DNA of 64,000 nt from Candidatus Omnitrophota bacterium (GTDB lineage Bacteria; Omnitrophota; Gorgyraeia; Gygaellales; Profunditerraquicolaceae): positions 166,313-230,312 of the forward strand of contig JALOQK010000001.1 of assembly GCA_025453395.1 (NCBI GenBank), in the 5' to 3' direction. The translations under genes and the position numbers were made by a program. Under the pieces are notes generated by a model. The model had not been told where the DNA came from, made no database searches, and saw nothing but the letters and a program-made list of their open reading frames with translations. Positions 4,258 through 36,404 of this stretch are shown in pieces. Within the stretch, counting starts at the first letter, position 1; each line of letters begins with the position of its first letter.

Positions 4258-4348
4258 TTTAGCTAAAAATTCAGAGCGAAAAACTAAAAACCATAATTCA
4301 AAACTCAAGATTTTTAATTTTACGCTATCGTTTTACGCTTTGCGCTAA
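4258..4348. repeat. Copy A of an ~90 bp MITE/REP-like intergenic element
   Basis: It shares ...gcgaaaaaCTAAAAAcc-ATAATTCAAAA-TTTTTAATTtTACGCTaTcGTTTTaCGCTTTgCGCT with the copies at 4851-4985, 7738-7832 and 41424-41527. It ends exactly at the Lrp stop codon. Confidence 0.6.
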
Positions 4349-4830
4349 TATGATATTGCTATCCTCTGATTCTCATCTTTGTGTTTTAGAATAACCCCGT
4401 CTTCCTTGTATTTCTTCAAAAGAAAGTGAGTTGCCGTCCCGCGCACATGTTCCGCGCAGGAAAGTTTTTCCGAGACAAAACGCGCAACTGTCTGTAAATC
4501 TTTGCCTTCAACGATTAAAAGCAGGTCATAAGTTCCGGAGATCAGATAACAGCTTGCCACCTCCGGAAAAGAATAGATGCGTTCCGCTATTTTATCAAAA
4601 CCTAAGTCTTTTTGCGGGACGATATTCACCTCAATTAACGCTCTTACTTGCACTTCAGCATCTTTAACTATCTCGCGATTAATTACTGTTTTGTATTTAA
4701 GAATGACCCCGTCTTTTTCATATTTTTTTATGGTTTTCTTAACCGCATCAGGCTTTTTCTTGAGCATCTTGGCAATATCCTCTACTGAAGCACGCGCGTC
4801 TTTCTCTAGAATTTCTAAAATCTCATCCAT
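4345..4830 (-). CDS. Lrp/AsnC family transcriptional regulator
   Basis: 161 aa with an N-terminal HTH (SVEDIAKMLKKKPDAVKKTIKKYEKDGVI) and a RAM-like C-terminal domain. Confidence 0.7.
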   Translation of the reverse strand: MDEILEILEKDARASVEDIAKMLKKKPDAVKKTIKKYEKDGVILKYKTVINREIVKDAEVQVRALIEVNIVPQKDLGFDKIAERIYSFPEVASCYLISGTYDLLLIVEGKDLQTVARFVSEKLSCAEHVRGTATHFLLKKYKEDGVILKHKDENQRIAISY

Positions 4831-4850: not shown

Positions 4851-4985
4851 AAAAAAACTAAAAACCAAAATCCCAATAGCATCAGAAGCGAAAAGCTTAA
4901 AGCGAAAAATGCAAAACTATAATTCAAAATTAAAAATTTTTAATTCTACGCTGTAGTTTTACGCTTTGCACTTTAAGTTTTTAGC
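4851..4985. repeat. Copy B of the MITE/REP-like element
   Basis: Same core, with an aagcgaaaag...aaagcgaaaaa left arm and a TACGCTgTaGTTTTACGCTTTGCac right arm. Its right end encodes the last ~10 aa of NadE (KAKNLKCKA). Confidence 0.55.
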
Positions 4986-5702
4986 TTTTAAATAACATAT
5001 TTTCGGCCCTTGCCTCTTATGCAAAGAACAGGCCATCATTTTCTTTACCTTATCTACTTTTTGCTTAGAGGTCTTTGGTTTACTTTTATTCTCCATACAT
5101 TCAAGTATGCCATCAAGTTCATTATAAGTAATCCCCATTTCGCCTTCATCGGTCTGGCCCGGCCAAAGCCCGGCAGTAGGGGCCTTGGTGATAATCTTTT
5201 CGGGAATCCCCATTTCCCAAGAAAGGCGCCTAACATCTTTTTTCAGCAAATCTGCTATGGGCAGGATATCTGTTCCTCCGTCGCCATATTTAGTAAAATA
5301 CCCCACGCTTAATTCTGATTTATTGCCTGTTCCGGAAACTAAATACCCGTAGGTATTGGCAAAATAATACAAAGTCATCATCCTTAAGCGCGGTTTCAAA
5401 TTTCCTAAGGCTAATTTGTTGCCTTTGGGCAAAGCATGAAAAAATAATTTATAAACTTTTGATAAATCTACGATCTTATAAGAGATCCCAAGCGCCTTAG
5501 CAGTAAGAAGCGCGTCTTTTAGATCTTGAGGGTTACTTTGTATGGGCATCATCAATCCTAAGACTTTATTTTTCCCTACCGCCTCTTTTGACAATGCTGC
5601 CACAAGCGCGGAATCTATCCCGCCAGACAAGCCTAGAATGATACCCTTGGCACCAGCCTGTTTAACTTGGCTGCGCATCCAATTTATAATCTTCTTTTTC
5701 AT
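4959..5702 (-). CDS. nadE: NH3-dependent NAD+ synthetase
   Basis: PP-loop motif LGLSGGIDSALVAAL and a KYGDGGTDILPIADL block, with a length typical of NadE. The C-terminus extends into repeat B. Confidence 0.75.
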   Translation of the reverse strand: MKKKIINWMRSQVKQAGAKGIILGLSGGIDSALVAALSKEAVGKNKVLGLMMPIQSNPQDLKDALLTAKALGISYKIVDLSKVYKLFFHALPKGNKLALGNLKPRLRMMTLYYFANTYGYLVSGTGNKSELSVGYFTKYGDGGTDILPIADLLKKDVRRLSWEMGIPEKIITKAPTAGLWPGQTDEGEMGITYNELDGILECMENKSKPKTSKQKVDKVKKMMACSLHKRQGPKICYLKAKNLKCKA

Positions 5703-6238: not shown

Positions 6239-6898
6239 CTAGCCCCCTTGATGCTTTACTACCTTTGCCTCTACCATGTAAATAACATCTTCAGCGATGT
6301 TTGTGGCATGGTCGCAAATGCGTTCCAAATGGCGGGCAATTAAAAGTAGCGGCACTGCCCTTGAAGCTGTGGAAGGATCGCGCGCCATATAATCATTAAT
6401 AAGCTCATTTTCAACGCACTGCTTAAGCCGGTCTGCTTCCGGCTCCAATTCAACAGCTTTCTTAGCCTGCTGAACATCCCTGCTTACAAACGCATCAATG
6501 GAATATTTTACCATATTCTGGGCGATTACTGAAAGTTTCGGAATATCAATAAGCGGCTTTAATAAAGGCTTATCTACTAATTCCAAAACCCTTTCCGCGA
6601 TATCTACAGCTAAATCTGCTATCCTTTCAAGTTCCGCGTTTATTTTCATACCCACAGTAATAAAGCGCAAATCCCCTGCCATGGGCTGATAACGCGCGAT
6701 AAGGTCTATACAGCGCTCATCAATTAAAAGCTCCAACTGGTCAACTTTATTATCGCAAGAAATAACTTCCTGGGCCTCTTGCCTGCTTTTGTTCTTAAGC
6801 GCCTCTACAGACTTAAAGATCGCCTCTTGCGCGAATATGCCCATCTTAAGTATTTCCTGATGCAATTCTTTTAACTCATCATCAATATGCCTTTGCAT
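6239..6898 (-). CDS. phoU: Phosphate-specific transport system accessory protein PhoU
   Basis: Two PhoU repeats (DLRFITVGMKINAELERIADLAVDIAERV). It lies downstream of pstB. The start is placed at MQRHIDDELKEL. Confidence 0.85.
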   Translation of the reverse strand: MQRHIDDELKELHQEILKMGIFAQEAIFKSVEALKNKSRQEAQEVISCDNKVDQLELLIDERCIDLIARYQPMAGDLRFITVGMKINAELERIADLAVDIAERVLELVDKPLLKPLIDIPKLSVIAQNMVKYSIDAFVSRDVQQAKKAVELEPEADRLKQCVENELINDYMARDPSTASRAVPLLLIARHLERICDHATNIAEDVIYMVEAKVVKHQGG

Positions 6899-6955
6899 AA
6901 AATACCTCCTTGCCCAGAAAGGGCACACCGGCGTAATTCAAGTAAACGCCGGGTG

Positions 6956-7723
6956 TTATCCATATCTACCGGTAATATATTCTTCAGTGCGCCTTTCTTT
7001 AGGTTTAGTAAAAATATTGTGCGTTGTATCAAACTCTACCAATTCCCCCAAAAGCATAAAACCTGTATCATCAGAAACACGCGCTGCCTGTTGCATGTTA
7101 TGGGTAACAATTACTATTGTATACCTGGCTTTAAGCTCACGCATTAATTCTTCTATGCGGCTAGTTGCCTGAGGATCAAGGGTGGAACAGGGCTCATCCA
7201 TCAACAATACATCTGGCTTTACCGCAATCAAACGCGCGATACACAAACGCTGTTTTTCCTCCAACGATAAAGATAAGGCGCTTTTCTTAAGCTTATCCTT
7301 TAGGTCATCCCACAATAAAACCGCTTCCAAGCTTTCCTGCACAATCTGGTCCAGTTTGTCCTTAGGCGCATCCATGTGCACTCTTTGGCCAAAAACAATA
7401 TTTTCATATATGGAAAGTGGAAATGGATTTGGACGCTGAAAAACCATCCCTACTTTCTTGCGCAAAGAAACCAAGTCGGCTTTTGCGTCAAGAATGTTTT
7501 CTTGATCAACAACAATTCTTCCTTCTGTACGCACGCCTTCAATCAAATCATTCATACGGTTAAACACGCGCAGCATCGTAGATTTCCCGCATCCCGAAGG
7601 CCCGATAATCGCGGTAATCTTGCGCGCGCCAAAAGCGCAATTCACATTCTTTAGCGCCTGGAAATTTCCATACCACAAATTCAGATTATCTACTTCTATC
7701 TTCGGCGCATCTTTCTTATTCAT
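6956..7723 (-). CDS. pstB: Phosphate ABC transporter ATP-binding protein, paralog with a degenerate ABC signature (LSLEEKQ instead of LSGGQQQ)
   Basis: Walker A GPSGCGKST, Walker B LLMDEPCSTLD, H-loop VTHNM and the PstB-type C-terminal tail. The C-loop reads SALSLSLEEKQRLCIAR. Confidence 0.85.
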   Translation of the reverse strand: MNKKDAPKIEVDNLNLWYGNFQALKNVNCAFGARKITAIIGPSGCGKSTMLRVFNRMNDLIEGVRTEGRIVVDQENILDAKADLVSLRKKVGMVFQRPNPFPLSIYENIVFGQRVHMDAPKDKLDQIVQESLEAVLLWDDLKDKLKKSALSLSLEEKQRLCIARLIAVKPDVLLMDEPCSTLDPQATSRIEELMRELKARYTIVIVTHNMQQAARVSDDTGFMLLGELVEFDTTHNIFTKPKERRTEEYITGRYG

Positions 7724-7737
7724 AAATATCCCGTTCT

Positions 7738-7832
7738 CGAAGCTAAAAATTAAAAGCGAAAAAGGTAAAGCTATAATTCAAAATTTAAAATTTTTAATTT
7801 TACGCTATAGTTTTTCGCTTTACGCTTTACGC
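7738..7832. repeat. Copy C of the MITE/REP-like element
   Basis: taAAAGCGAAAAAggtaaagcTATAATTCAAAATTTAAAATTTTTAATTTTACGCTATAGTTTTTCGCTTTACGCTTTACGCT. Its terminal inverted repeats are AAAGCGAAAAA and TTTTTCGCTTT. It lies between the two pstB genes. Confidence 0.6.
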
Positions 7833-7836
7833 TCTC

Positions 7837-8583
7837 CTATCCAAACTTGCCGCTTATATAATCATTAGTCCTTTGATCATGCGGAGTAGTAAACATTTTC
7901 TCTGTTTTATCCAATTCAACCAATTCTCCATTTAAGAAAAACGCGGTCTTGTCTCCCACACGCGCGGCTTGTTTTACATTGTTAGTCACCAAAATTATGG
8001 TGTATTTTTCTTTTAGCTTTAACATCGCCTCTTCTACCTTAGCTGTAGAAATTGGGTCCAAGCCAGAACAAGGCTCATCAAAAAGAATGACTTCCGGAGA
8101 AACCGCCAATGTGCGCGCGATACATAAGCGCTGTTGTTGCCCGCCGGATAATTTAAATGCTGACTCATTCAAGCGATCCTTAACCTCATCCCAAATATAA
8201 GCTTTCTTCAAGGAATCCTGAACAATCCCCTCCAGGCTTTCATGTTTATTAATCCCGTTCATTCTTGCTCCATAGGCAACATTGTCAAAAATAGATAGCG
8301 GTAACGGCAAAGGCATGGCAAAAACCATCCCGATCTTTCTTCGTATTTCTTCCGCGGACAAGGAGGATAAATCCAAACTATTATATTGCACACTCCCAGT
8401 CATCTTAAAGCCCACCTGAAGATGATTAAGTTTATTTAGCATGCGCAAAAATGTAGTCTTCCCGCTATTAGCTGGCCCGATGATAGTTAATATCTCGCGC
8501 GCATTTACGTCAATAGTCAAATCACGTAAAACATGAGATTGGCCAAACCAAATATTAAGCTTCTTGACGGAAATACTTACCAT
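7837..8583 (-). CDS. pstB: Phosphate ABC transporter ATP-binding protein (canonical copy)
   Basis: Walker A GPANSGKTT, canonical signature LSGGQQQRLCIAR, Walker B ILFDEPCSGLD. Confidence 0.85.
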   Translation of the reverse strand: MVSISVKKLNIWFGQSHVLRDLTIDVNAREILTIIGPANSGKTTFLRMLNKLNHLQVGFKMTGSVQYNSLDLSSLSAEEIRRKIGMVFAMPLPLPLSIFDNVAYGARMNGINKHESLEGIVQDSLKKAYIWDEVKDRLNESAFKLSGGQQQRLCIARTLAVSPEVILFDEPCSGLDPISTAKVEEAMLKLKEKYTIILVTNNVKQAARVGDKTAFFLNGELVELDKTEKMFTTPHDQRTNDYISGKFG

Positions 8584-9428
8584 TTCTTTCTCTTTCTGAA
8601 TTTAGAGCGGATAATAATCGCAATCAAGTTCATAAAAAGCACCATTACCAAAAGTACCAACGCTGTTCCATAGCGGATCTTTTCATCAACATTGGGGACT
8701 TGAGTTGAAATAACATACAAATGATACGGCAAAGCCATGGCTTGGCTAAATAAAGAATCGGGTAATCTGGGAAGATAAAACGCAGCCACCGTAAAAAGAA
8801 TGGGCGCTGTCTCACCAGCGGCTCTTCCTACACCCAAAATTGTCCCAGTAATAATTCCAGGGATGGCATTGGGTAAAACAATATTCCGGATCGTCTGCCA
8901 CCTTGTTGCTCCTAATGACCAGCTTACCTCGCGAAAAGAATACGGAACACTCTCCAAGGCCTCGCGGCTGGTTGTAATAATAATCGGCAAAATCATAATT
9001 CCTAAGGTCAAAGACCCGGATAAAATAGAAACTCCGAATTTCAAGAAAACAACAAATAACGCCAATCCGAAAAGCCCATAAACTACCGACGGAACACCTG
9101 CTAGATTGACAATCGCAAGCCTTATAAAACGCGTTAACAAATTATCCTTTGAATACTCACTCAAATATATTGCCGCCAAAAGCCCGATAGGCAAAGCAAA
9201 AATAATCGCCCCTGATACTAAATACAATGTCCCGATTATCGCCGGGAATATTCCGCCAGCGCGCATACCCTGCCGAGGTATATCAGTTAAAAATTGCCAA
9301 GTAACCCCTGCGATACCCTTTTGGATAATAATAAACACGATCATCCCTACCGGCACAACAATTAATAACGTGGCCAAGAAAAGAAAAAAGAAGGCGATTT
9401 TTTGTGTTCTATGAACAGATTTTCTCAT
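8577..9428 (-). CDS. pstA: Phosphate ABC transporter permease PstA
   Basis: 283 aa polytopic permease with an EAA-like loop (GATRWQTIRNIVLPNAIPGIITG). Its position follows pstC. Confidence 0.85.
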   Translation of the reverse strand: MRKSVHRTQKIAFFFLFLATLLIVVPVGMIVFIIIQKGIAGVTWQFLTDIPRQGMRAGGIFPAIIGTLYLVSGAIIFALPIGLLAAIYLSEYSKDNLLTRFIRLAIVNLAGVPSVVYGLFGLALFVVFLKFGVSILSGSLTLGIMILPIIITTSREALESVPYSFREVSWSLGATRWQTIRNIVLPNAIPGIITGTILGVGRAAGETAPILFTVAAFYLPRLPDSLFSQAMALPYHLYVISTQVPNVDEKIRYGTALVLLVMVLFMNLIAIIIRSKFRKRKKW

Positions 9429-10291
9429 TTTTCTCTATGCAAAAATAGGTCAGCGGTTATATTAATAGCAAAACTTATAATAAATAAAACAATGCCGATG
9501 GCAAAAAGCGCAAAGTAATGGTCGCTTCCTACTACTGTCTCGCCCATTTCCGCGGCAACTGTAGCTGTAAGGGTGCGCACCGGCTGTAAAATCGTATGCG
9601 GAATAACCGCGGAATTTCCCGTAATCATCATTACCGCCATAGTTTCTCCGATTACTCTTCCTAACCCCAGCATCACCGCAGCTAAAATCCCGGGGCGCGC
9701 CGCAGGAAGGATCACCCTCCAAATCGTCTGCCAATGCGTAGCCCCTAAAGCAAAGGCGCCCTCTTTATAGCTCTTGGGCACAGAATAAAGCGCATCCTCA
9801 GCAATAGAAACTATTGTCGGGGTAGCCATAAAAGCTAACATGATTGACCCGGAAAGAGCAGTTAGGCCAGTAGGTATGTGAAAAATTTGTTTTACCCACG
9901 GCACTAAAGTTACCATCCCGATAAACCCTAAAACAACACTGGGTATTGCTGCCAAAAGTTCTATGCCGGATTTTAAAACTTCTTTAATCTTTGACGGCGC
10001 TACCTCTGCGATATACACTGCGCAGGCAACCCCAATGGGTATGGAAATAACCGCCGCGCCAAAAGTAACAAGAAGCGACCCCATGATAAGCGGCAATATC
10101 CCTAAACTGGGAGGCTCGGATATGGGATACCAGCTTTTTCCGAATAGAAAGGCAAACGGGGAGTAACCTTTAAAAAGAGCCAAGCCCTCTTTTAAAAGAA
10201 ATAGAAAAATAAGTACTACAAAAACTATGGAAGCTAATCCGCAAATAAGGATTAGTTTCTCAATGACGAACTCTTTAATGGTACGGAACAT
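9425..10291 (-). CDS. pstC: Phosphate ABC transporter permease PstC
   Basis: 288 aa permease (GATHWQTIWRVILPAARPGILAA) located between pstS and pstA. Confidence 0.85.
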   Translation of the reverse strand: MFRTIKEFVIEKLILICGLASIVFVVLIFLFLLKEGLALFKGYSPFAFLFGKSWYPISEPPSLGILPLIMGSLLVTFGAAVISIPIGVACAVYIAEVAPSKIKEVLKSGIELLAAIPSVVLGFIGMVTLVPWVKQIFHIPTGLTALSGSIMLAFMATPTIVSIAEDALYSVPKSYKEGAFALGATHWQTIWRVILPAARPGILAAVMLGLGRVIGETMAVMMITGNSAVIPHTILQPVRTLTATVAAEMGETVVGSDHYFALFAIGIVLFIISFAINITADLFLHREK

Positions 10292-10301
10292 AAAAAACCT
10301 T

Positions 10302-10336
10302 TCAGCTGTCAGCTATCAGCTATCAGCTTTCAGCTA
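10302..10336. repeat. Heptamer minisatellite (TCAGCTN)x5
   Basis: tcagctg tcagcta tcagcta tcagctt tcagcta, followed by aaatacataaaactagaaatcgcaa. A second locus is at 24744-24777. Confidence 0.7.
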
Positions 10337-10359
10337 AATACATAAAACTAGAAATCGCA

Positions 10360-10433: not shown

Positions 10434-11303
10434 TTACTTTTTGATTGGCACAAAGTCTGTTTCTAAAACAATCTTCTGGCCTTCGGCAGACAAAATAAAA
10501 TCAATAAACTTTTTTACCTCTTCTTTGGGCTGGCCATTGGTATATAAAAATAAGGGCCTAGAAATAGGATAGGCGCCTTTTACCACATTGTCTATTGTAG
10601 GCTCAACGTAAGCAGATTTCTCATCCTTTGCCACAGAAACAGCCTTTTGCTTGGAAGAAATATAGCCCATCCCATAATAACCGATACAGCCGGAGTTATT
10701 TGCTACCTCATCGGCAATAGCCTGCGAAGAAGAAAGCATCAGGGCTTCTGGAGCAAATTCTGATTTATCGTTAGGGTCATTGTTCCTTAAAACATGCTCC
10801 TTTAAATATACATGCGTGCCGGAATTTACCTCACGCGAAAGAATAACGATCTTGGAATCGCTTCCTCCTAATTCTTTCCAGTTCTTGACCCTGCCGGTGA
10901 AAATATCAGCCAGTTGTTTCATGGTTAACCGGCCTACCGGGTTAGAAGGATTTACCACTATTGCCAAGCCGTCAAGGGCGGCCTTTATCTGATTGGGCTC
11001 TACGCCTTTTTGCCGGGCAAGCTGAATTTCTTTTTGTTTGATTTCTCTGGAGCTGGCGGCAATATCACAGCTTGAATTAATTAAGCTTGCGATACCAGTC
11101 CCCGAACCGCCCCCCGTAACCGCGATAAATTCATTGGGATTAGTTTCCATGTATTTCTCCGCCCAACTTTGGGCAAGATTAACCATAGTGTCTGAACCTT
11201 TGATCTGGATAGATTGCTGTTTGCCAAAGACAAACGATAGAACAAAACAAGATAAAACTAAAAACACTCCCAAGCTCACCCTCACCCTATCCCCATAACT
11301 CAT
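10434..11303 (-). CDS. pstS: Phosphate ABC transporter substrate-binding protein PstS
   Basis: 289 aa with a signal peptide and a PBP fold. It contains the PstS-type blocks (GSDTMVNLAQSWAEKY; TGGGSGTGIASL; SREVNSGTH). The RBS gagaggtga precedes the ATG. Confidence 0.85.
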   Translation of the reverse strand: MSYGDRVRVSLGVFLVLSCFVLSFVFGKQQSIQIKGSDTMVNLAQSWAEKYMETNPNEFIAVTGGGSGTGIASLINSSCDIAASSREIKQKEIQLARQKGVEPNQIKAALDGLAIVVNPSNPVGRLTMKQLADIFTGRVKNWKELGGSDSKIVILSREVNSGTHVYLKEHVLRNNDPNDKSEFAPEALMLSSSQAIADEVANNSGCIGYYGMGYISSKQKAVSVAKDEKSAYVEPTIDNVVKGAYPISRPLFLYTNGQPKEEVKKFIDFILSAEGQKIVLETDFVPIKK

Positions 11304-11343: not shown

Positions 11344-12012
11344 CTAACGTGCCTTAATCGCTAATAATTTAATCAGATCTGCCGCATCTTCTATTTTATC
11401 AGTTACTCCTTCAAGGTATTCCGCCAACTGATAACAAAGCAATAAACTGACCGGATCCAAATCAACGCTTATGATGGATTCTATTAAAAGTTTCTTCTGG
11501 TCATCTGCTGCGTGTTCCAAGCGGTCCACTTCCTCACAATCCTGCAGGGCCTTCTTAAGGTCGTTCTTGGTCAGGCTGTCAATGCCGTCTTTAAACTTAG
11601 TAATAGAATCTAAAATAAGTTTTGTCCCGGCGGAAATATTGTCCAGGATATCTTTGGGAAGCTTTTTCTGGATAAAACCTAAAAGCCGCGCGGCGCCGTT
11701 TGTCCAGTCCGCGATTTTATCCAGCGTCTTGACAAAATGCATCAAGTCTTCTCTGTCTGGAGGCAATAAAAGCCCTTCGGAAAGCTCTTTGACCATCTTG
11801 GACCTTAGGATATCCGCCTGATGCTCGCTTTCCGCTACTTTTTCTATGGCCGACTTCTTCACTTCCGCGTCCTGGCGGATAAAGGCAGCAACGGCTTCGG
11901 AAAAATAGGTAACAGTTTTATAGGTTTCCTGGACGTGTTTCTGGGCGTCAATAAGGATAGACTGCTCTTCAGCCATGCCCAGCCACCCAAGGATATTTCT
12001 GGTTTCTTTCAT
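11344..12012 (-). CDS. DUF47-family phosphate transport regulator (PhoU-like, PitA-associated)
   Basis: Helical protein whose FEEQ-like N-terminus matches the DUF47 family, which pairs with PiT transporters. It overlaps the 3' end of pitA. The start is placed at MKETRNILGWLGMAEEQ; the ORF track extends it to 12039. Confidence 0.65.
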   Translation of the reverse strand: MKETRNILGWLGMAEEQSILIDAQKHVQETYKTVTYFSEAVAAFIRQDAEVKKSAIEKVAESEHQADILRSKMVKELSEGLLLPPDREDLMHFVKTLDKIADWTNGAARLLGFIQKKLPKDILDNISAGTKLILDSITKFKDGIDSLTKNDLKKALQDCEEVDRLEHAADDQKKLLIESIISVDLDPVSLLLCYQLAEYLEGVTDKIEDAADLIKLLAIKAR

Positions 12013-12025
12013 TGTGAACCTCCTT

Positions 12026-13006
12026 CTAGATTTTGACAAAATTAATTATTATTTTCAAAATGATAAAACTCATTACCCCGGAAACAAAAGGTGTTGCCAG
12101 CCAGCAGAAAATTATATCTTTAATGATCCTAAAATTAAGCACCCTTATTCCTTTTACCAGGCCCACTCCAAAAATCGCCCCCACAATGGAGTGGCTGGTA
12201 GAAACAGGAATACCAAAAATTGTATAGATATGCACATTAATAGCGCTTGCTAACTGGGCGGAAAAAGCCATTAGCGGCAATAGCCGGGTAATTTCACTTC
12301 CAATAGTTTCAATGACCTTATAACCCCAGGTCACAATGCCTAAAATTATGGCGACACCCCCAATGACCACACTTACCCCGGGAGTTAAAATCCCGCTTCC
12401 GGCAATAACTCCGGTTGCGTTTGCCACATCATTAGCCCCCCAGGTAAAAGCCACATAACAGCCTCCCATAGTAACAAGGGCCGACATCACCGGCTTCACA
12501 AACCTTCTGGGGACTATCCGGTAGAAGATATTTTTAAACACGCTATAGAAAATATACCCCAATACTACAGCCCCCAAAGGGGTAAATACCCAACAAACAA
12601 AGATATCCTGCAATGCTTTCCATTTTATGGGAGCACCAACCGCTAATCCCGCCCCGGCAACCGCCCCGACGATAGAATGGCTTGTGGAAATAGGCATCTT
12701 CCAGTAAGTAGCAAGCGCCACCCAGCAACAGGCCGCAAAACAGGCCACAAGCGCTATGTATAAGGAAATATTCTTGGGCAATTGATCCAAAGGGACGATC
12801 CCTCGCCCAATGGTTTTCACAACCGCTGAACCCTGCAGAAGAGCGCCTAAAAAGCCGAATATACAAATTAAAATTATTGCCTGGCGAAGCGATAAAACAC
12901 GAGAGCCGACTGCCACGCCTAAAGAATTGGCTGCGTCATTAGCCCCGATAGACCAGCCAACCGCTAGCCCCATAAGAATGGTAAAACCGATAAGAAGTAT
13001 GTTCAT
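12026..13006 (-). CDS. pitA: Inorganic phosphate transporter, PiT family
   Basis: Duplicated GANDAANSLG and GANDVANATG motifs within a 326 aa polytopic protein. Confidence 0.85.
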   Translation of the reverse strand: MNILLIGFTILMGLAVGWSIGANDAANSLGVAVGSRVLSLRQAIILICIFGFLGALLQGSAVVKTIGRGIVPLDQLPKNISLYIALVACFAACCWVALATYWKMPISTSHSIVGAVAGAGLAVGAPIKWKALQDIFVCWVFTPLGAVVLGYIFYSVFKNIFYRIVPRRFVKPVMSALVTMGGCYVAFTWGANDVANATGVIAGSGILTPGVSVVIGGVAIILGIVTWGYKVIETIGSEITRLLPLMAFSAQLASAINVHIYTIFGIPVSTSHSIVGAIFGVGLVKGIRVLNFRIIKDIIFCWLATPFVSGVMSFIILKIIINFVKI

Positions 13007-24344: not shown

Positions 24345-24741
24345 AATGCGCCATAAAATTCATAACATGAAAGCTTTCTTGGTTTTCTTATCCGCTATAA
24401 ATATATTTATAATTGCATTTGCACAAACAAAAGAAATCAATTATAATAGCGCTGAAGAAAGCCGTGATCCTTTTATCCCTTTAGTGGATAATAACGGGAA
24501 CTTGCGCAAAGAGTTTAAGCGGCCGGTTGATGAAGCAAGCATCCCAAAAGTAAACTTAATGGGGATAAGCGACCTCTCCGGAACATTTTACGCGATAATT
24601 GACGGAGAAATGGTCAAAGAAGCAGACACGATCAAAGAGTTAAAAATCGAGAAAATATATTTTGACCGGGTAATTGTAAGTTACGCCGATAAAATATTTG
24701 AATTAAAGTGGGAACAGGAGAAAAATGCAGGGAAAAAATAG
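24334..24741 (+). CDS. pilP: Type IV pilus assembly lipoprotein PilP
   Basis: 135 aa with a signal peptide, an RDPFIPL motif (the conserved PilP RDPF) and a C-terminal beta domain. It lies directly before the secretin gene. Confidence 0.6.
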   Translation: MLNKMRHKIHNMKAFLVFLSAINIFIIAFAQTKEINYNSAEESRDPFIPLVDNNGNLRKEFKRPVDEASIPKVNLMGISDLSGTFYAIIDGEMVKEADTIKELKIEKIYFDRVIVSYADKIFELKWEQEKNAGKK

Positions 24742-26170
24742 TGTCAGCTATCAGCTTTCAGCTTTCAGCTTTCAGCTAAAAACTAAAAAAACAATCGCTA
24801 TAATTACCCTGATCCTATTCTTTATGGGAATGTGCCCGTCTCTTTTACTTTCCCAAGACCAGCAAGAAACAAAAACCGCATCTAATCTTATAAGCCTGAA
24901 TTTGCGCGATGTGAATATTGAAGACGCGCTTAAAGTGATCGCCCAGGCAAGCGGGATGAATGTCATCTTGGATAAAGACGTCAAAGCGACAGTAAATATC
25001 AACCTTAAAAACGTTACCTGGAATACCGCGCTTGACAATATCCTCAAAACCAACCAATTAACCTATAAAATACAGGAAAACATTATCCGGGTGATGACCT
25101 TAGATTCTTTGAAAAAAGAGGACGACACCCTTCCCCTGTCTTTAAAAATCATTTCGCTTAATTTTGCCAGGGCCGATGAAATACAAAAATCATTAACCAA
25201 AATGCTTTCTCCCCGCGGCAATATTGAAATAAACGCCTCCACAAATTCTCTGATCATAAGCGATTCGCAAGAAACATTCCCCAAGCTTGAAGAAGTAATC
25301 TCCAAGCTTGACACCCGCATCCCGCAGGTCATGGTAGAAACCCTGATCGTCAGTTTTAAAGGCAGCAACACCTACCGACAAGGCGTGGATATGACCCTTA
25401 TGAGCAACAAACACGGCACAGACCGCCAATATTGGCAATATCCTGTGGGCGATCAAAACGGAATGGCCGGAGTTATGGATTTTTCCTATGCCAAGCCTAT
25501 TCTATCAGGATTAGACCTAGCCAGCACCTTAAGGCTTTTTTCCGAAGATGCCCGGGTAAACATCCTGGCCAATCCTAAAGTAATGACCCTGGATAACAAA
25601 GAAGCCTCCATAGAAATTCTTGAACAAGTCCCTTATCAATCTCAATCTACCACAGAACAAGGAACCGTGGTCAGCACCTCATTTAAAGATGCTGGCTTAA
25701 AAATATTGGTTACCCCGCATATTACAAAAGATCAGTTTATCTCTTTAGCGGTAAAAGGCGAACACAGTTATATCGCAGCCTACGTTAATAACCAGCCGCA
25801 GATAGATGCCAGAAAAATAGAAACAAATTTCATGCTAAAAGACGGAGAAGTAGCGGTAATCGGTGGTTTACGTAAAAAAGACAAGACTTACACCGTAACT
25901 AAAGTCCCTGTCTTAGGGGATATCCCTTTTATCGGAAAGATTTTATTCAGTAAAATAGTCAAAACAGACGTAGATAATGAATTAATAATTTTTATCTCCC
26001 CGCACATCATGGAAACCAACCTAGCAAGCTCTTCCGAGCAGATAAATTACAAAGGCGCACATGAAGAATTAGTAGGCCTGACAAACAAGAAAAAAGAAGC
26101 ATTAAGAAATCAGGCTATTGAAAATTATTTTCAAACGCAGCAACCGCCTTCCCCAAGAAAGAAGCAATGA
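24725..26170 (+). CDS. pilQ: Type IV pilus secretin PilQ (short form, no AMIN domains)
   Basis: Secretin N-domain (NINLKNVTWNTALDNILKTNQLTYKIQENIIRV) and C-terminal secretin domain (GEVAVIGGLRKKDKTYTVTKVPVLGDIPFIGKLF). The first ~17 codons are the TCAGCTN heptamer repeat. Confidence 0.8.
   Translation: MQGKNSVSYQLSAFSFQLKTKKTIAIITLILFFMGMCPSLLLSQDQQETKTASNLISLNLRDVNIEDALKVIAQASGMNVILDKDVKATVNINLKNVTWNTALDNILKTNQLTYKIQENIIRVMTLDSLKKEDDTLPLSLKIISLNFARADEIQKSLTKMLSPRGNIEINASTNSLIISDSQETFPKLEEVISKLDTRIPQVMVETLIVSFKGSNTYRQGVDMTLMSNKHGTDRQYWQYPVGDQNGMAGVMDFSYAKPILSGLDLASTLRLFSEDARVNILANPKVMTLDNKEASIEILEQVPYQSQSTTEQGTVVSTSFKDAGLKILVTPHITKDQFISLAVKGEHSYIAAYVNNQPQIDARKIETNFMLKDGEVAVIGGLRKKDKTYTVTKVPVLGDIPFIGKILFSKIVKTDVDNELIIFISPHIMETNLASSSEQINYKGAHEELVGLTNKKKEALRNQAIENYFQTQQPPSPRKKQ
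24744..24777. repeat. Heptamer minisatellite (TCAGCTN)x5, second locus
   Basis: tcagcta tcagctt tcagctt tcagctt tcagcta, followed by aaaactaaaaaaacaatcgcta. The flank is similar to the 10302 locus. It is translated as SYQLSAFSFQL at the pilQ N-terminus. Confidence 0.7.
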
Positions 26171-33015: not shown

Positions 33016-34725
33016 TTAGTCCTTAGCTGTTACCCGATATACCTCTTCAAGGGTAGTAACCCCATTAAACACCTTTTCAAACCCGTCCTGACGCAAGGTA
33101 ATAAGCTTTCCGTTTTTTATCGCCTCATCCCTTACTTGCTCTAAAGGCACCTCTCTTATGACTTGGCTTTTAATATAATCGTCAACATTAAACGCTTCTA
33201 AAAGCGCGATCCTGCCCTTATATCCGGTATTTAAACAAGAATTGCATCCGCGGCCATGATAAAACTTTCCAGAACCTGTAACCTTAAGGCCCAATTCTTT
33301 GATCATAAATTCAGGAGCGTCAGTAAATTCCTCCTTGCAATTATCGCAGATCTTACGGCAGAGCCTCTGGGCGCAAACAAGAATAAGTGAAGACGCCACC
33401 AAATACCTCTCTACCCCCATATCAATAAGCCGGGCAAAGGCGCTTACTGAATCATTGGTATGAAGGGTGCTTAATATAAGTTGACCTATAAGCGAAGCCT
33501 TAATAGCGATATCCGCTGTTTCAGTATCGCGGATTTCTCCGATCATGATAATATCCGGGCTTTGCCTTAATACCCCGCGCAGCGCGGTGGCAAAGGTAAA
33601 ATCTATATCCGATCGTATATGCGTCTGGCCAATACCATCCAACTGATATTCAACCGGGTCCTCAATTGTAACCACATGGCGTTCCATAGTATTTAATTCT
33701 TTTAAAACCGAATAAAGCGTAGTAGATTTACCGCTTCCCGTGGGCCCGGTAATCAGGATCATCCCGTGGTCTTTAGACAAAGCTTCCTGCAAAAGCCTCA
33801 AAGACTGCTCTGAAAATCCCAGATCCGTTAAGCTGACCATTGCCTTAGCTTTATCCAGGATCCTTAAAACGAATTTTTCTCCGTAAATAGTGGGAAGCGA
33901 AGAAACACGGAAATCAATCTGTCTGCCATAGGCCACCAATGGGAACCTTCCGTCTTGAGGAAGATAAAATTTAGTAATATCAAGATTGGAAAGTATTTTT
34001 ATGCGCGCGGCAATGCCGCGTTGCACCTTTTTGGGCAGGCCATAAGCTTTGTGCATTATCCCGTCTATGCGGTAGCGCACAGTCAAATCTTCTTCTGTTG
34101 GTTCAAGATGTATATCTGACGCCCTCTGCTGAATAGCTTCGCCTATAATCCGGTTGACCGCCTCTACTATCGGGCCTTTCTGGCTTTCCTGAATAAGATC
34201 CGCGGAATCGCTATCATCCAATTCTTCAGTCCTTATGATCTGCATAGACTTTTCTTTTTCATCGTAAGCTAAAATTTCCGGAAGGCTTTGCAGCTGAGTG
34301 TAGAAATTATTAATGCAGTCATTGACCGCCTTTTCCTTAGCCAAAACCTGTTTTATTTCACACTTCAAAGAAAGGCGCAGGTTATCCAAAGTAATAATAT
34401 CCATGGGCTCCGCGATAGCCACAAGAAGGGTATCCCCTATCTTGTAAAGCGGCAGAAAAGAATATTTACGCACTATTTCTTCGGGAATAGAAGCTACAAG
34501 CCGCGGGTCAAGCTCATATTTGTAAGGATCAATAAAAGGCACATTCAAATGATACGCCACTAAAGAAAGAAGGTCTTCCTCATTAATAAAACCTTCAGAG
34601 ATAAGCACTTCTTTTATTTCCTTGCCGGTCTTTCTTTGAATAGAAATTGCCTTCTCTATATCTTCGGTGGTTATCTTATTGGCATCGGTTAAGATCTTGA
34701 TAAAATTTAATTTGGTTTTGCCCAT
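33016..34725 (-). CDS. pilB: Type IV pilus assembly ATPase PilB/GspE family
   Basis: T2SSE_N N-terminal domain, Walker A ILITGPTGSGKSTTLYS, a tetracysteine motif (CRKICDNC...GRGCNSC), and a 569 aa length that is PilB-like rather than PilT. Confidence 0.85.
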   Translation of the reverse strand: MGKTKLNFIKILTDANKITTEDIEKAISIQRKTGKEIKEVLISEGFINEEDLLSLVAYHLNVPFIDPYKYELDPRLVASIPEEIVRKYSFLPLYKIGDTLLVAIAEPMDIITLDNLRLSLKCEIKQVLAKEKAVNDCINNFYTQLQSLPEILAYDEKEKSMQIIRTEELDDSDSADLIQESQKGPIVEAVNRIIGEAIQQRASDIHLEPTEEDLTVRYRIDGIMHKAYGLPKKVQRGIAARIKILSNLDITKFYLPQDGRFPLVAYGRQIDFRVSSLPTIYGEKFVLRILDKAKAMVSLTDLGFSEQSLRLLQEALSKDHGMILITGPTGSGKSTTLYSVLKELNTMERHVVTIEDPVEYQLDGIGQTHIRSDIDFTFATALRGVLRQSPDIIMIGEIRDTETADIAIKASLIGQLILSTLHTNDSVSAFARLIDMGVERYLVASSLILVCAQRLCRKICDNCKEEFTDAPEFMIKELGLKVTGSGKFYHGRGCNSCLNTGYKGRIALLEAFNVDDYIKSQVIREVPLEQVRDEAIKNGKLITLRQDGFEKVFNGVTTLEEVYRVTAKD

Positions 34726-34730
34726 ATTTT

Positions 34731-36404
34731 CTAATCCGCAGGGGTTACCCGCAAGACCTCTTCTATAGTTATTATGCCGGCGCGGGCTAATTCCTGCGCC
34801 TCTTCCCTTAAAGTGCGCATGCCTTCCTTGCGGGCTATTTCTTTAATCACCTTCTCTTCAATATTCTTGCCCACGATAGCATCTTTAATCACGGCTGTTA
34901 GATGTAAAACCTCGGCCAATAAAATCCGCCCCTTATATCCTGTACCCATGCATTCTTTACAGCCTTTCCCGCGAAAATACGGCTGCGATGGAACAGGCTC
35001 TTTGCAATGTACGCAGATCCTGCGCGCTAATCTTTGTGAAACAATGGCGATCAATGAAGCGTTAATCAAGAATGACTCCACCCCCATATCCAACAGGCGC
35101 ACTACCGACCCGGCAGCAGTAGTAGTATGAAGCGTGCTTAAAACCAAATGCCCGGTTAACGCCGCTTTAATAGCGATATCTACAGTCTCAAAATCTCGGA
35201 TCTCGCCGATCATGATAATATCTGGGTCTTGCCTTAGAATAGAACGTAGGCAACGGCTAAAGTTCAGCCCAGTTTTGATATTAATAGACACCTGGTTAAT
35301 CCCTTTTAGCTGATATTCAACAGGATCTTCAACGGTAATAATATTTTTTTCTGGGGTATGCACATATTTTAATAAAGAATACAAAGTAGAGGTTTTGCCT
35401 GAACCTGTGGGCCCACAAACCAAAAGCATGCCGTGGGGCAATTGGGCGGCTTTTTTAAGCCCGGATATAACCGCATCTGTTAAGCCTAACTTATTTAAAT
35501 CCAATAACCCTAAAGATTTATCCAATATCCTGATCGCCACTTTCTCGCCCAATATCGTTGGGTATGATGAAACACGAAAATCAACTTCCTTGTCTTTTCT
35601 TCTAATCTTAAACTGGCCATCTTGAGGGAAACGGTGCTCCGCTATATCCAGATCCGATATGACCTTAATGCGCGACACAATAAAAGGATGAAAAGCCCGC
35701 GGCAGGCTTTCTATATGCCGGTATACCCCATCAATACGGAAACGTATCCTAGTTGCCCCTTCCAAAGGCTCAATCAACACATCGCTTGCCTTTGCGTCAA
35801 TAGCTTTATCCATAATAAAATTTGTCGCTTTAACAATGGGCATCTCCTGGGTAATCTGCGCCAGGTCTTGCGCGTCAAACTCACCTCTTGTCTTAATGGA
35901 AATATCCGAAAGGCTATCTCCTAAGATATCTTCCATTTCCATATTTGCTTCTTCGGGCTTATCTCCCAGCTGAACGCCGTAATAATGATGCAATAATTTA
36001 TCCATTTCAGCGCCAGCTATAACAACTGGATTGATTTTATGGCCTGATGCCTCTTGAATATCCTCTAAATCAACAACGGTGCTGAGATTTGCTATAGCTA
36101 AAAGAATCCCGTTTTCAGTCTTTATTAAGGGGAAAATACGGTATTTGCGCGCATTCTGCTCTGATACGAAACTTAATGTTTCGGCTCGGATAGTAAGCTG
36201 GGAAATGTCAAATTCGGGAACGGGGCAATTGGATTTGATAAAACCTTCAAGCTTCTGCTTATTGATCAGAATATCCTCTGTTAAAACCAGGCTTAAAGGC
36301 TTATTATTGGCAGCCTGCAGAGAAAAAACCTCGCCAACCTGGGAGGCCTTTAACAACCCATTCTGGGCGAGAAGCTGGATGATCTGACGCTTGGGATAAA
36401 TCAT
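34731..36404 (-). CDS. Second PilB/GspE family secretion ATPase paralog
   Basis: Walker A LLVCGPTGSGKTSTLYS, a tetracysteine motif (CVHCKEP...GKGCKEC) and an N-terminal T2SSE_N domain, 557 aa. Confidence 0.85.
   Translation of the reverse strand: MIYPKRQIIQLLAQNGLLKASQVGEVFSLQAANNKPLSLVLTEDILINKQKLEGFIKSNCPVPEFDISQLTIRAETLSFVSEQNARKYRIFPLIKTENGILLAIANLSTVVDLEDIQEASGHKINPVVIAGAEMDKLLHHYYGVQLGDKPEEANMEMEDILGDSLSDISIKTRGEFDAQDLAQITQEMPIVKATNFIMDKAIDAKASDVLIEPLEGATRIRFRIDGVYRHIESLPRAFHPFIVSRIKVISDLDIAEHRFPQDGQFKIRRKDKEVDFRVSSYPTILGEKVAIRILDKSLGLLDLNKLGLTDAVISGLKKAAQLPHGMLLVCGPTGSGKTSTLYSLLKYVHTPEKNIITVEDPVEYQLKGINQVSINIKTGLNFSRCLRSILRQDPDIIMIGEIRDFETVDIAIKAALTGHLVLSTLHTTTAAGSVVRLLDMGVESFLINASLIAIVSQRLARRICVHCKEPVPSQPYFRGKGCKECMGTGYKGRILLAEVLHLTAVIKDAIVGKNIEEKVIKEIARKEGMRTLREEAQELARAGIITIEEVLRVTPAD

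What the first reader, a model, noticed from the sequence alone, without database searches (positions are those of the whole stretch)
6956..8583. Tandem pstB paralogs, one with a degenerate ABC signature motif (LSLEEKQ)
Two full-length PstB ATPases sit head-to-tail with MITE copy C between them. The upstream one (7837-8583) has canonical LSGGQQQRL. The downstream one (6956-7723) reads LSLSLEEKQRL while keeping Walker A, Walker B and the H-loop. This predicts an asymmetric PstB heterodimer with one catalytically compromised site, as in heterodimeric ABC exporters, instead of the usual PstB homodimer.
Basis: partly seen in the sequence, partly recalled or inferred. Interest (0 to 1): 0.5.

Follow-up and report, generated by a model that had tools for sequence, protein, structure and literature searches.

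The report
Two-subunit phosphate-pump ATPase, one odd site
This phosphate-uptake operon carries two different PstB ATPase genes whose unusual residues all fall in the same one of the two ATP pockets they would form together, and the same gene pair recurs in many bacterial phyla, so it is probably a conserved pump motor with only one fully working ATP site.

Summary
Two full-length, 46% identical pstB genes sit head-to-tail on the minus strand between pstA and phoU, and a roughly 100-nt repeat (4 copies in the window) lies in the 113-nt spacer.

The downstream copy has LSLEE in place of LSGGQ. Its Walker A, Q-loop, Walker B and H-loop are intact. It keeps LSGGQ, the Walker A Lys and the Walker B Asp-Glu.

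In a head-to-tail ABC dimer, all three changes fall in one composite ATP site. The other site is fully canonical. Either homodimer would have two defective sites.

The pair is old and conserved. Close homologues keep each pattern. A motif scan of species-representative genomes hit its 120-locus limit across Omnitrophota, Planctomycetota, Aminicenantes/Acidobacteriota, Desulfobacterota, Elusimicrobiota, Ignavibacteriota and others. Gene order was the same in 95 of 96 paired loci, and the two genes are co-inherited.

The most likely reading is an obligate PstB heterodimer with one consensus and one degenerate ATP site. Such asymmetry is known from ABC exporters. I found no description of it for Pst in the papers searched. 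The biochemistry is untested.

The parts
7837..8583 (-). pstB-up: PstB paralogue of 248 aa. Walker A is GPANSGKTT (K42). The Q-loop has Ala (A89, codon 8319-8317). The signature LSGGQ is canonical (8151-8137). Walker B is D169-E170 and the D-loop is SGLD. The H-loop has Asn (N201, codon 7983-7981), followed by K204. Its start codon overlaps the pstA stop codon (ATGGTAA).
6956..7723 (-). pstB-down: PstB paralogue of 255 aa. Walker A is GPSGCGKST (K47) and the Q-loop has Q96. The signature is LSLEE (7270-7256); E155 (codon 7261-7259) replaces the second Gly of LSGGQ. Walker B is D176-E177 and the D-loop is STLD. The H-loop has H208 (codon 7102-7100).
7724..7836 (-). 113-nt spacer between the two pstB genes. 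It holds one copy (7740-7840) of a 4-copy, roughly 100-nt AT-rich repeat. In 97 related loci the median distance from the upstream stop codon to the downstream conserved core is 18 nt, against 137 nt here, so the spacer is a lineage-specific insertion.
8577..9428 (-). pstA permease (context: one of the two membrane subunits on which the ATPase subunits dock).
   Evidence: TIGR00974, 300.7 bits
9425..10291 (-). pstC permease (context).
   Evidence: TIGR02138, 296.9 bits
10434..11303 (-). pstS phosphate-binding protein (context).
   Evidence: TIGR02136, 260.8 bits
6239..6928 (-). phoU, immediately downstream of pstB-down (context). The listed GTG start is probably too far upstream.
   Evidence: TIGR02135, 194.1 bits

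Best explanation
The two genes encode the two non-identical ATPase subunits of one PstS-PstC-PstA phosphate importer. ABC ATPase domains dimerise head to tail, so each ATP site is built from the Walker A, Walker B, Q-loop and H-loop of one subunit and the signature motif of the other.

Site I is made of pstB-down K47, Q96, D176-E177 and H208 together with pstB-up LSGGQ. It is fully canonical and is predicted to hydrolyse ATP and drive transport.

Site II is made of pstB-up K42 and D169-E170, with A89 in place of the Q-loop Gln and N201 in place of the H-loop His, together with pstB-down LSLEE. It collects every family-specific deviation. It probably still binds nucleotide, because the P-loop Lys and the Walker B Asp-Glu are invariant. 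The Glu at the second signature Gly would put a negative charge next to the gamma-phosphate, and the Gln and His that sense and position the gamma-phosphate are gone. Closure and hydrolysis at site II are therefore predicted to be weak or absent. The importer would then run on about one ATP per cycle, with site II acting as a structural or regulatory site.

What is shown: the sequence pattern, its conservation, the gene order and the co-inheritance. What is inferred: the heterodimer itself, the mapping onto sites (by homology to ABC dimers, including E. coli PstB), and the loss of catalysis.
For: (1) The motif assignment comes from direct alignment to solved E. coli PstB and from a multiple alignment. 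(2) In E. coli PstSCAB, ATP is bound by Walker A and B of one PstB and LSGGQ of the other (PMC12976172). (3) All 120 of the best homologues of pstB-down (76-82% identical) have L[ST]LE[QE] with the other motifs intact, apart from one with Asn in the H-loop. Of the 120 best homologues of pstB-up, 117 have VTNN and 108 have A in the Q-loop, with LSGGQ and DEP intact. (4) A genome scan for L[ST]xE[QE][KR]QRLCIAR reached its 120-locus limit across many phyla. In 95 of 96 loci with two same-strand PstB ORFs, the no-Q/no-H copy is upstream and the degenerate-signature copy is downstream. (5) Among the 94 upstream-type proteins in those loci, the Walker A Lys is present in 94 of 94, Walker B DE in 94 of 94, and a Q-loop Gln in 0 of 94. 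Among the 110 downstream-type proteins, K, Q and DE are present in 110 of 110. (6) In the reverse check, 3 of 3 upstream-type proteins picked by homology alone have an L[ST]LEQ copy immediately downstream. (7) With the motif columns masked, the upstream type forms a pure clade of 99 of 99 with bootstrap support of 39 of 40. Pairwise distances of the two genes correlate across 86 loci (r = 0.70; 0 of 999 Mantel permutations reached it). (8) None of 96 canonical PstB sequences has anything but G, Q and H at these three positions. (9) By logic, either homodimer would carry two defective sites; only the heterodimer gives one intact site. (10) In CFTR, G551D or G551E at the same signature Gly blocks ATP-driven dimerisation by charge repulsion with the gamma-phosphate (PMC4178940). 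Yeast Pdr5's degenerate site has the signature LNVEQ, with the same Glu (PMC7756269). (11) One lineage (L005) has also lost the Walker A Lys and the catalytic Glu in the upstream-type partner, as expected if site II need not hydrolyse ATP.
Against: There is no biochemical, structural or expression data for any member. The hallmark of classical degenerate sites, loss of the Walker B catalytic Glu, is absent: Glu is invariant in the upstream type, so slow hydrolysis at site II is possible. In MRP1, changing the H-loop His to Asn or Gln preserved transport (PMC7756269), so N201 alone need not inactivate the site. The genome scan required Glu at signature position 4, so the association was ascertained from the downstream gene; only 3 loci test the reverse direction. 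Monophyly of the downstream type is weak under bootstrap (13 of 40). Some Elusimicrobiota loci (L046, L110) have the degenerate-signature copy next to phoU without an adjacent partner. I could not model the heterodimer.
Confidence: 0.75

Rival explanations
1. The two proteins form a heterodimer, but both ATP sites remain catalytically active. The substitutions (Asn for His, Ala for Gln, Glu for Gly) are tolerated or mutually compensating, so there is sequence asymmetry without functional asymmetry.
For: The Walker A Lys and the Walker B Asp-Glu of the upstream type are invariant (94 of 94). H-loop Asn or Gln mutants of MRP1 NBD2 keep transport (PMC7756269). Signature position 3 of the downstream type varies together with P-loop position 4 of the upstream type by lineage (L with N 58 times, E with K 10 times, G with R 8 times), which could reflect a remodelled but working site.
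Against: An acidic side chain at the second signature Gly is strongly disruptive in CFTR (G551D and G551E, PMC4178940). Three independent gamma-phosphate contacts are changed in the same site. One lineage has additionally lost the Walker A Lys and the catalytic Glu (L005). No canonical PstB among the 96 sampled shows any of these changes.
Confidence: 0.13
2. pstB-up is not a motor subunit. It would be a regulatory PstB-like protein, for example one that signals with PhoU and the Pho two-component system, while pstB-down homodimers power transport.
For: E. coli PstB takes part in PhoU/PhoR signalling (cited in PMC12976172). In E. faecalis, tandem pstB1 and pstB2 have non-equivalent roles (PMC12096839). 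In L046 and L110 the downstream type sits with phoU and without an adjacent partner.
Against: A pstB-down homodimer would have LSLEE in both sites, and so no canonical site at all. The only canonical signature in the operon is on pstB-up and is invariant (93 of 94 LSGGQ). The genes usually abut or overlap (median 18 nt) and are co-inherited, as expected for 1:1 subunits.
Confidence: 0.08
3. One copy is a decaying duplicate, that is, a pseudo-ATPase remnant or a recent pseudogenising duplication.
For: There are non-consensus motifs in both copies. A repeat element is inserted between them.
Against: Both ORFs are full length and align end to end with PstB. They are only 46% identical. Each variant pattern is conserved in more than 100 genomes of many phyla, with invariant ATP-binding residues.
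Confidence: 0.01

Closest known systems
Heterodimeric ABC exporters with one consensus and one degenerate nucleotide-binding site (TM287/288, BmrCD, TAP1/2, CFTR, MRP1, Pdr5)
   Same: There are two non-identical ATPase domains. The non-consensus residues of one domain (H-loop and others) and the non-consensus signature of the other domain combine in a single composite site, and the other site is canonical. Pdr5's degenerate signature LNVEQ even shares the Glu at position 4 (PMC7756269; PMC3971661).
   Different: Here the transporter is a type I importer that depends on a binding protein, with free-standing ATPase subunits. The Walker B catalytic Glu, whose loss is the usual hallmark of a degenerate site, is retained. 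The Q-loop Gln is lost instead. This is not homology beyond the shared ABC domain: the pair arose inside the PstB family.
Tandem pstB1/pstB2 (pstBA/pstBB) of Firmicutes (Enterococcus faecalis, Bacillus subtilis)
   Same: Two adjacent pstB paralogues sit inside a pst-phoU operon. The E. faecalis genes have non-equivalent roles (PMC12096839). B. subtilis is modelled as PstBA-PstBB-PstC-PstA-PstS (PMC11466899).
   Different: [quoted passage not shown] A run-together Bacillus PstB-PstB sequence (P0122) likewise has canonical LSGGQ and VTHN in both halves. The pair here has complementary non-canonical motifs, and the upstream type forms its own clade apart from canonical PstB.
Canonical homodimeric PstB of E. 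coli PstSCAB (PDB 9k3x, 9k3s)
   Same: The fold and length are the same, the operon context (pstSCAB-phoU) is the same, and the best structural relative by sequence is this protein (E = 1.4e-93 for pstB-down and 3.1e-70 for pstB-up).
   Different: E. coli uses two identical PstB subunits and two identical ATP sites (PMC12976172). Here there are two genes and two unlike sites.
Fused-ATPase sugar and nucleoside importers with one degenerate site (RbsA, NupO)
   Same: They are ABC importers in which one ATP site deviates from consensus (PMC11466899).
   Different: They belong to a different class of importer, they have two ATPase domains fused in one polypeptide, and the deviations include loss of the Walker A Lys. 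They are not part of the PstB family.

Membership tests
PstB, phosphate ABC transporter ATP-binding protein (NCBIfam TIGR00972) | Full-length match to the PstB profile at or above the curated cut-off (343.2 bits) | tested here: met
   pstB-down scores 374 bits over profile positions 2-248 of 248.
PstB, phosphate ABC transporter ATP-binding protein (NCBIfam TIGR00972) | The same criterion applied to pstB-up | tested here: not met
   pstB-up scores 334.6 bits, just under 343.2. PstB is still by far its best family and the match is full length. It is a divergent PstB paralogue, which explains why public records name it only 'phosphate ABC transporter ATP-binding protein'.
PstB, phosphate ABC transporter ATP-binding protein (NCBIfam TIGR00972) | Encoded in a pstS-pstC-pstA-pstB-phoU operon | tested here: met
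   pstS, pstC, pstA and phoU were all identified above their cut-offs on the same strand and flank the two genes.
PstB, phosphate ABC transporter ATP-binding protein (NCBIfam TIGR00972) | Canonical catalytic motifs (Q-loop Gln, LSGGQ, H-loop His), invariant in 96 canonical PstB sequences | tested here: not met
   pstB-up lacks the Gln and the His. pstB-down lacks the second signature Gly.
ABC heterodimer with one degenerate nucleotide-binding site (functional class) | Two non-identical ATPase domains that are co-encoded and co-inherited | tested here: met
   The copies are 46% identical. Gene order is fixed in 95 of 96 loci. The mirror-tree correlation is r = 0.70.
ABC heterodimer with one degenerate nucleotide-binding site (functional class) | All non-consensus residues fall in one composite site and the other site is consensus | tested here: met
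   Shown by motif mapping onto the head-to-tail ABC dimer (dimer geometry from PMC12976172 and PMC7756269). This is a homology inference; no model of this pair was obtained.
ABC heterodimer with one degenerate nucleotide-binding site (functional class) | Replacement of the Walker B catalytic Glu in the degenerate site (the usual hallmark, PMC7544095 abstract) | tested here: not met
   pstB-up keeps D169-E170, and DE is present in 94 of 94 relatives. The only exception is L005, which has DRP.
ABC heterodimer with one degenerate nucleotide-binding site (functional class) | The degenerate site binds ATP but does not hydrolyse it at a useful rate | not testable with these tools
   This needs ATPase and nucleotide-trapping assays on the purified complex.
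Firmicute-type tandem pstB1/pstB2 | [quoted passage not shown] | tested here: not met
   See the motifs above. E. faecalis and Bacillus pairs are canonical.

The most novel reading that the evidence does not exclude
A widespread and ancient branch of Pst phosphate importers, present in at least ten phyla, would be a natural type I ABC importer with a single working ATP site, and its second site would have been converted into something new. The signature Glu of one subunit would pair with residues of the partner, such as the Lys or Arg at P-loop position 4 or the conserved Lys three residues after the H-loop Asn. This contact would latch the dimer or sense nucleotide or phosphate status, setting a cost of one ATP per phosphate and feeding the PhoU signal.
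Probability: 0.15. Interest if true: 0.75.

Novelty: new variant of a known kind. Interest (0 to 1): 0.55.

Why it matters
How many ATP molecules an ABC importer must hydrolyse per transport cycle, and whether both sites are needed, is an old question. So far it has been addressed mostly with engineered mutants of homodimeric importers such as HisP and MalK (PMC3971661). If this reading holds, nature has already fixed a one-good-site version of a well-understood importer for which an E. coli structure now exists. That version occurs in many phyla, several of them little-studied groups known here only from metagenome assemblies. It gives a clean natural system for testing the role of a degenerate site outside the exporters. 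The finding also matters for annotation. The upstream-type subunit falls just under the PstB model cut-off, and neither gene is flagged as part of a heterodimer.

Tried and rejected
1. Heterodimer modelling. The structure tools return no coordinates, so inter-subunit distances could not be measured. I did not run monomer models because the end-to-end alignments to solved PstB already show intact domains.

2. Prevalence. The search of 50%-identity cluster representatives returned mostly canonical PstB, with about 10 upstream-type and 2 downstream-type representatives among 150. This is too coarse to count the family, although it did supply canonical sequences for the tree.

3. Origin of the pair. 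I tested whether the two types are sister clades from a single duplication. This was not supported (0 of 40 bootstrap replicates). The downstream type sits among canonical PstB, and the upstream type is the distinct clade.

4. Spacer as a structured RNA or terminator. The fold is not better than shuffled sequence, and no terminator-like site was found in the spacer on the coding strand. The spacer of the relative L123 is unrelated in sequence.

5. A cultured host. A third homologue search, started from a Planctomycetaceae upstream-type protein, returned only metagenome-derived entries.

6. Literature. Searches on PstB1/PstB2, on PstB with degenerate signature motifs and heterodimers, on degenerate sites in ABC importers, on PstSCAB cryo-EM, and on the Synechocystis tandem pstB genes sll0683/sll0684 found no description of a degenerate PstB pair. 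The library is incomplete, so this is not proof of absence. I could not retrieve the cyanobacterial tandem pstB sequences to check their motifs.

7. Other copies in the window. No other PstB-like or ABC ATPase ORF is present in the 64 kb.
Full report
**What is in the window.**
The minus strand carries a phosphate-uptake cluster. In order, it contains:
- a PHO4/Pit-like permease (12026-13006);
- a PhoU-like TIGR00153 protein (11344-12039);
- pstS (10434-11303), pstC (9425-10291) and pstA (8577-9428);
- a first PstB-like gene, here called pstB-up (7837-8583, 248 aa);
- a 113-nt spacer;
- a second PstB-like gene, pstB-down (6956-7723, 255 aa);
- phoU (6239-6928).

For both ATPases the best family is TIGR00972 PstB over the whole profile. 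pstB-down scores 374 bits, above the 343.2 cut-off, and pstB-up scores 334.6 bits, just below it. Both align end to end with the solved E. coli PstB of PDB 9k3x (E = 1.4e-93 and 3.1e-70). They are 46% identical to each other. No other ABC ATPase is encoded in the 64 kb. Identical proteins in public data come from a 272-kb contig of a Candidatus Omnitrophica (Omnitrophota) metagenome-assembled genome.

**Checking the observation.**
pstB-down reads L152-S-L-E155-E156 where E. coli PstB has LSGGQ. It keeps Walker A GPSGCGKST (K47), Q-loop Q96, Walker B D176-E177 and H-loop H208. pstB-up has LSGGQ (residues 145-149).

- its Q-loop is GMVFAMP, with A89 where Gln is expected;
- its H-loop is VTNN, with N201 where His is expected;
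- its Walker A is GPANSGKTT and its D-loop is SGLD.

It retains K42 and D169-E170.

The spacer holds one of four copies of a roughly 100-nt AT-rich repeat (4260-4360, 4886-4986, 7740-7840, 41417-41517). Whether that repeat is a MITE was not established, and its RNA fold is unremarkable.

**Why the two sets of changes belong together.**
ABC ATPase domains dimerise head to tail. Each ATP is held by the Walker A, Walker B, Q-loop and H-loop of one subunit and the signature of the other (PMC7756269). This geometry has been seen directly for E. coli PstB (PMC12976172).

Applied to this pair, there are two composite sites:
- Site I is built from the pstB-down catalytic motifs and the pstB-up LSGGQ. 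It is entirely canonical.
- Site II is built from the pstB-up catalytic motifs and the pstB-down LSLEE. It receives all three deviations: A89, N201 and E155.

A pstB-down homodimer would have a bad signature in both sites. A pstB-up homodimer would lack the Gln and the His in both sites. Only the heterodimer yields one intact site.

**Conservation.**
Every one of the 120 best database homologues of pstB-down (76-82% identical) has L[ST]LE[QE][KR]Q with the other motifs intact, apart from one that has Asn in the H-loop. Among the 120 best homologues of pstB-up:
- 117 have VTNN;
- 108 have Ala in the Q-loop (10 more were not captured by the motif pattern);
- 118 have LSGGQ (two of these are the canonical sequences described next), and nearly all have DEP.

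Two of the remaining sequences are run-together canonical PstB-PstB sequences, one of them from a Bacillus.

By submitters' labels (my hand count) the loci are:

| Label | Loci |
|---|---|
| Omnitrophota | 28 |
| Planctomycetota | 25 |
| Aminicenantes/Acidobacteriota | 18 |
| Desulfobacterota or 'delta' | 14 |
| Elusimicrobiota/Endomicrobia | 8 |
| Ignavibacteriota/Bacteroidota | 7 |
| Firmicute-labelled | 4 |
| unclassified | 7 |
| single loci: Gemmatimonadales, Longimicrobiales, 'Proteobacteria', Nitrospirota, Firestonebacteria, Actinomycetota, Chlamydiae, Gottesmanbacteria, WOR-3 | 9 |

All are metagenome-assembled genomes, so the single-locus labels could reflect binning errors.

Ninety-six loci contained two same-strand PstB ORFs. 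In 95 of them the order is the same as in the window, with the canonical-signature, no-Gln, no-His copy first and the degenerate-signature copy second.

Residue counts in these loci are as follows:
- Among the 94 upstream-type proteins, the Walker A Lys is present in 94 of 94, Walker B Asp-Glu in 94 of 94, LSGGQ in 93 of 94, and a Q-loop Gln in 0 of 94 (84 Ala, 9 Ser, 1 Asp).
- Among the 110 downstream-type proteins, Lys, Gln and Asp-Glu are present in 110 of 110.
- The downstream signatures are LSLEQ (56), LTLEQ (19), LTEEQ (11), LSGEQ (11) and LTGEQ (7), plus rarer forms.

The scan required Glu at signature position 4, so I also checked the opposite direction. Three upstream-type proteins chosen by homology alone all have an L[ST]LEQ gene immediately downstream within pstSCA-...-phoU.

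Compared with 96 canonical PstB sequences, the family-specific differences are few. In E. coli numbering:
- the upstream type has C47S, Q98A, F103L, A183G, H210N and Q213K;
- the downstream type has A137V and G157E.

Positions 98, 157 and 210 are 100% Gln, Gly and His in the canonical set.

**Evolution.**
I built a neighbour-joining tree with all motif columns masked. The upstream type forms a pure clade (99 of 99) and the downstream type a nearly pure one (104 of 106). On a subsample, bootstrap support is 39 of 40 for the upstream clade but only 13 of 40 for the downstream clade. The two types are never sister groups (0 of 40). The upstream type is therefore an old, distinct PstB lineage, while the downstream type is a lightly modified canonical PstB.

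Pairwise distances of the two genes correlate across 86 loci (r = 0.70; 0 of 999 Mantel permutations reached this value), so they are inherited together. The upstream type evolves about 1.2 times faster.

In relatives the genes normally abut or overlap. The median distance from the upstream stop codon to the downstream conserved core is 18 nt, against 137 nt here. The repeat-bearing spacer in this genome is therefore a secondary insertion into a tightly coupled gene pair.

**Mechanism and how sure it is.**
I consider an obligate heterodimer very likely. That site II is catalytically impaired is likely but not shown.

In favour of impairment:
- The second signature Gly contacts the gamma-phosphate through its backbone. 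In CFTR, G551D and G551E, but not G551S or G551K, block ATP-driven dimerisation by charge repulsion (PMC4178940).
- Pdr5's degenerate site has the signature LNVEQ, with the same Glu (PMC7756269).
- The Q-loop Gln and the H-loop His both sense or position the gamma-phosphate.
- One Erysipelotrichaceae-labelled locus (L005) has gone further. Its partner has GPANSGITT (no Walker A Lys) and LLDRP (no catalytic Glu).

Against impairment:
- The catalytic Glu, whose loss is the usual hallmark of degenerate sites, is invariant in the upstream type.
- His-to-Asn or His-to-Gln changes in the H-loop of MRP1 preserved transport.

A remodelled but still active site therefore remains possible. I give that rival 0.13.

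One suggestive observation concerns residues that would face each other across site II. Signature position 3 of the downstream type varies with P-loop position 4 of the upstream type by lineage (Leu with Asn 58 times, Glu with Lys 10 times, Gly with Arg 8 times). This is confounded by shared ancestry and counts only as a hint of direct contact.

**Comparison with what is known.**
Degenerate sites are described as frequent in ABC exporters (PMC3971661; PMC7756269). Among importers, the literature I could search mentions only the fused-ATPase RbsA and NupO (PMC11466899).

Tandem pstB genes are known in Firmicutes, but both E. faecalis proteins have identical canonical motifs. The 2025 study of them states that no earlier work on tandem pstB paralogues had been published (PMC12096839).

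The E. coli PstSCAB structure paper treats PstB as a homodimer. I found no paper describing a PstB pair with complementary degenerate motifs. The library is incomplete, and I could not examine the cyanobacterial tandem pstB genes.

**Verdict.**
This is a new variant of a known kind: a consensus/degenerate ATPase heterodimer inside the Pst type I importer family. It is of moderate to good interest because it offers a natural single-consensus-site importer in a system that now has a reference structure.

Noticed in passing
window 4260-4360, 4886-4986, 7740-7840, 41417-41517: There are four intergenic copies of a roughly 100-nt AT-rich, partly palindromic repeat (75-80% identical). One copy separates the two pstB genes, which abut in most relatives. 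The RNA fold of the pstB copy is not better than shuffled sequence, and no transposon-like ends were examined.
   Followed up: partly
window 10292-10347 and 24734-24803: A tandem heptamer array (TCAGCTn, about 5 units) lies in the pstS-pstC intergenic region and occurs again about 14 kb away. In the pstS-pstC gap it overlaps two terminator-like hairpins on the coding strand (10370-10350, 10322-10303). This would fit attenuation after pstS.
   Followed up: no
window 7258-7256 (E156 of pstB-down): This genome's signature is LSLEE. Only 2 of the other 119 close homologues have Glu at the fifth position; the rest read LSLEQ or LTLEQ. This copy therefore carries one extra deviation from the family norm.
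   Followed up: partly
L005 600-4656 (Erysipelotrichaceae-labelled MAG): The operon is rearranged: the degenerate-signature PstB (LTTEQ) comes first, then pstS, pstC and pstA, then a partner that has lost the Walker A Lys (GPANSGITT) and the catalytic Glu (LLDRP) but keeps the H-loop His, then phoU.
   Followed up: partly
L046 1209-2666 and L110 190-1753 (Endomicrobium / Elusimicrobiota MAGs): The degenerate-signature PstB (LTLEQ or LSLEQ) sits directly upstream of phoU, with unrelated genes on the other side and no adjacent partner or pstSCA. The partner may be encoded elsewhere in these genomes. L081 (Endomicrobiellum) does have the pair.
   Followed up: partly
L024 68-994, L109 6585-7400, L121 1-323: Some genomes carry a further PstB gene within a few kb of the degenerate pair. 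It is fully canonical in L024 and L109. In L121 it is cut by the locus end and is followed by a second phoU. This suggests that two Pst systems coexist.
   Followed up: no
window 11344-13006; L123 6510-8209: A PHO4/Pit-like permease gene and a PhoU-like DUF47/TIGR00153 gene overlap each other and lie directly upstream of pstS. The same two genes lie downstream of phoU in the related locus L123, so a low-affinity phosphate carrier travels with the Pst cluster in this lineage.
   Followed up: no
window 47488-57099 and 33458-35236, 38220-38824, 49009-62886: Several other direct-repeat families of 40-120 nt (63-93% identical) cluster in the 47-63 kb part of the window. This suggests paralogous genes or repeated modules there.
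   Followed up: no
window 7837-8583: pstB-up scores 334.6 bits against TIGR00972, just under the 343.2 cut-off. Public records therefore call its relatives only 'phosphate ABC transporter ATP-binding protein', while the downstream copy is named PstB. No dedicated family model appears to exist for the upstream type.
   Followed up: partly
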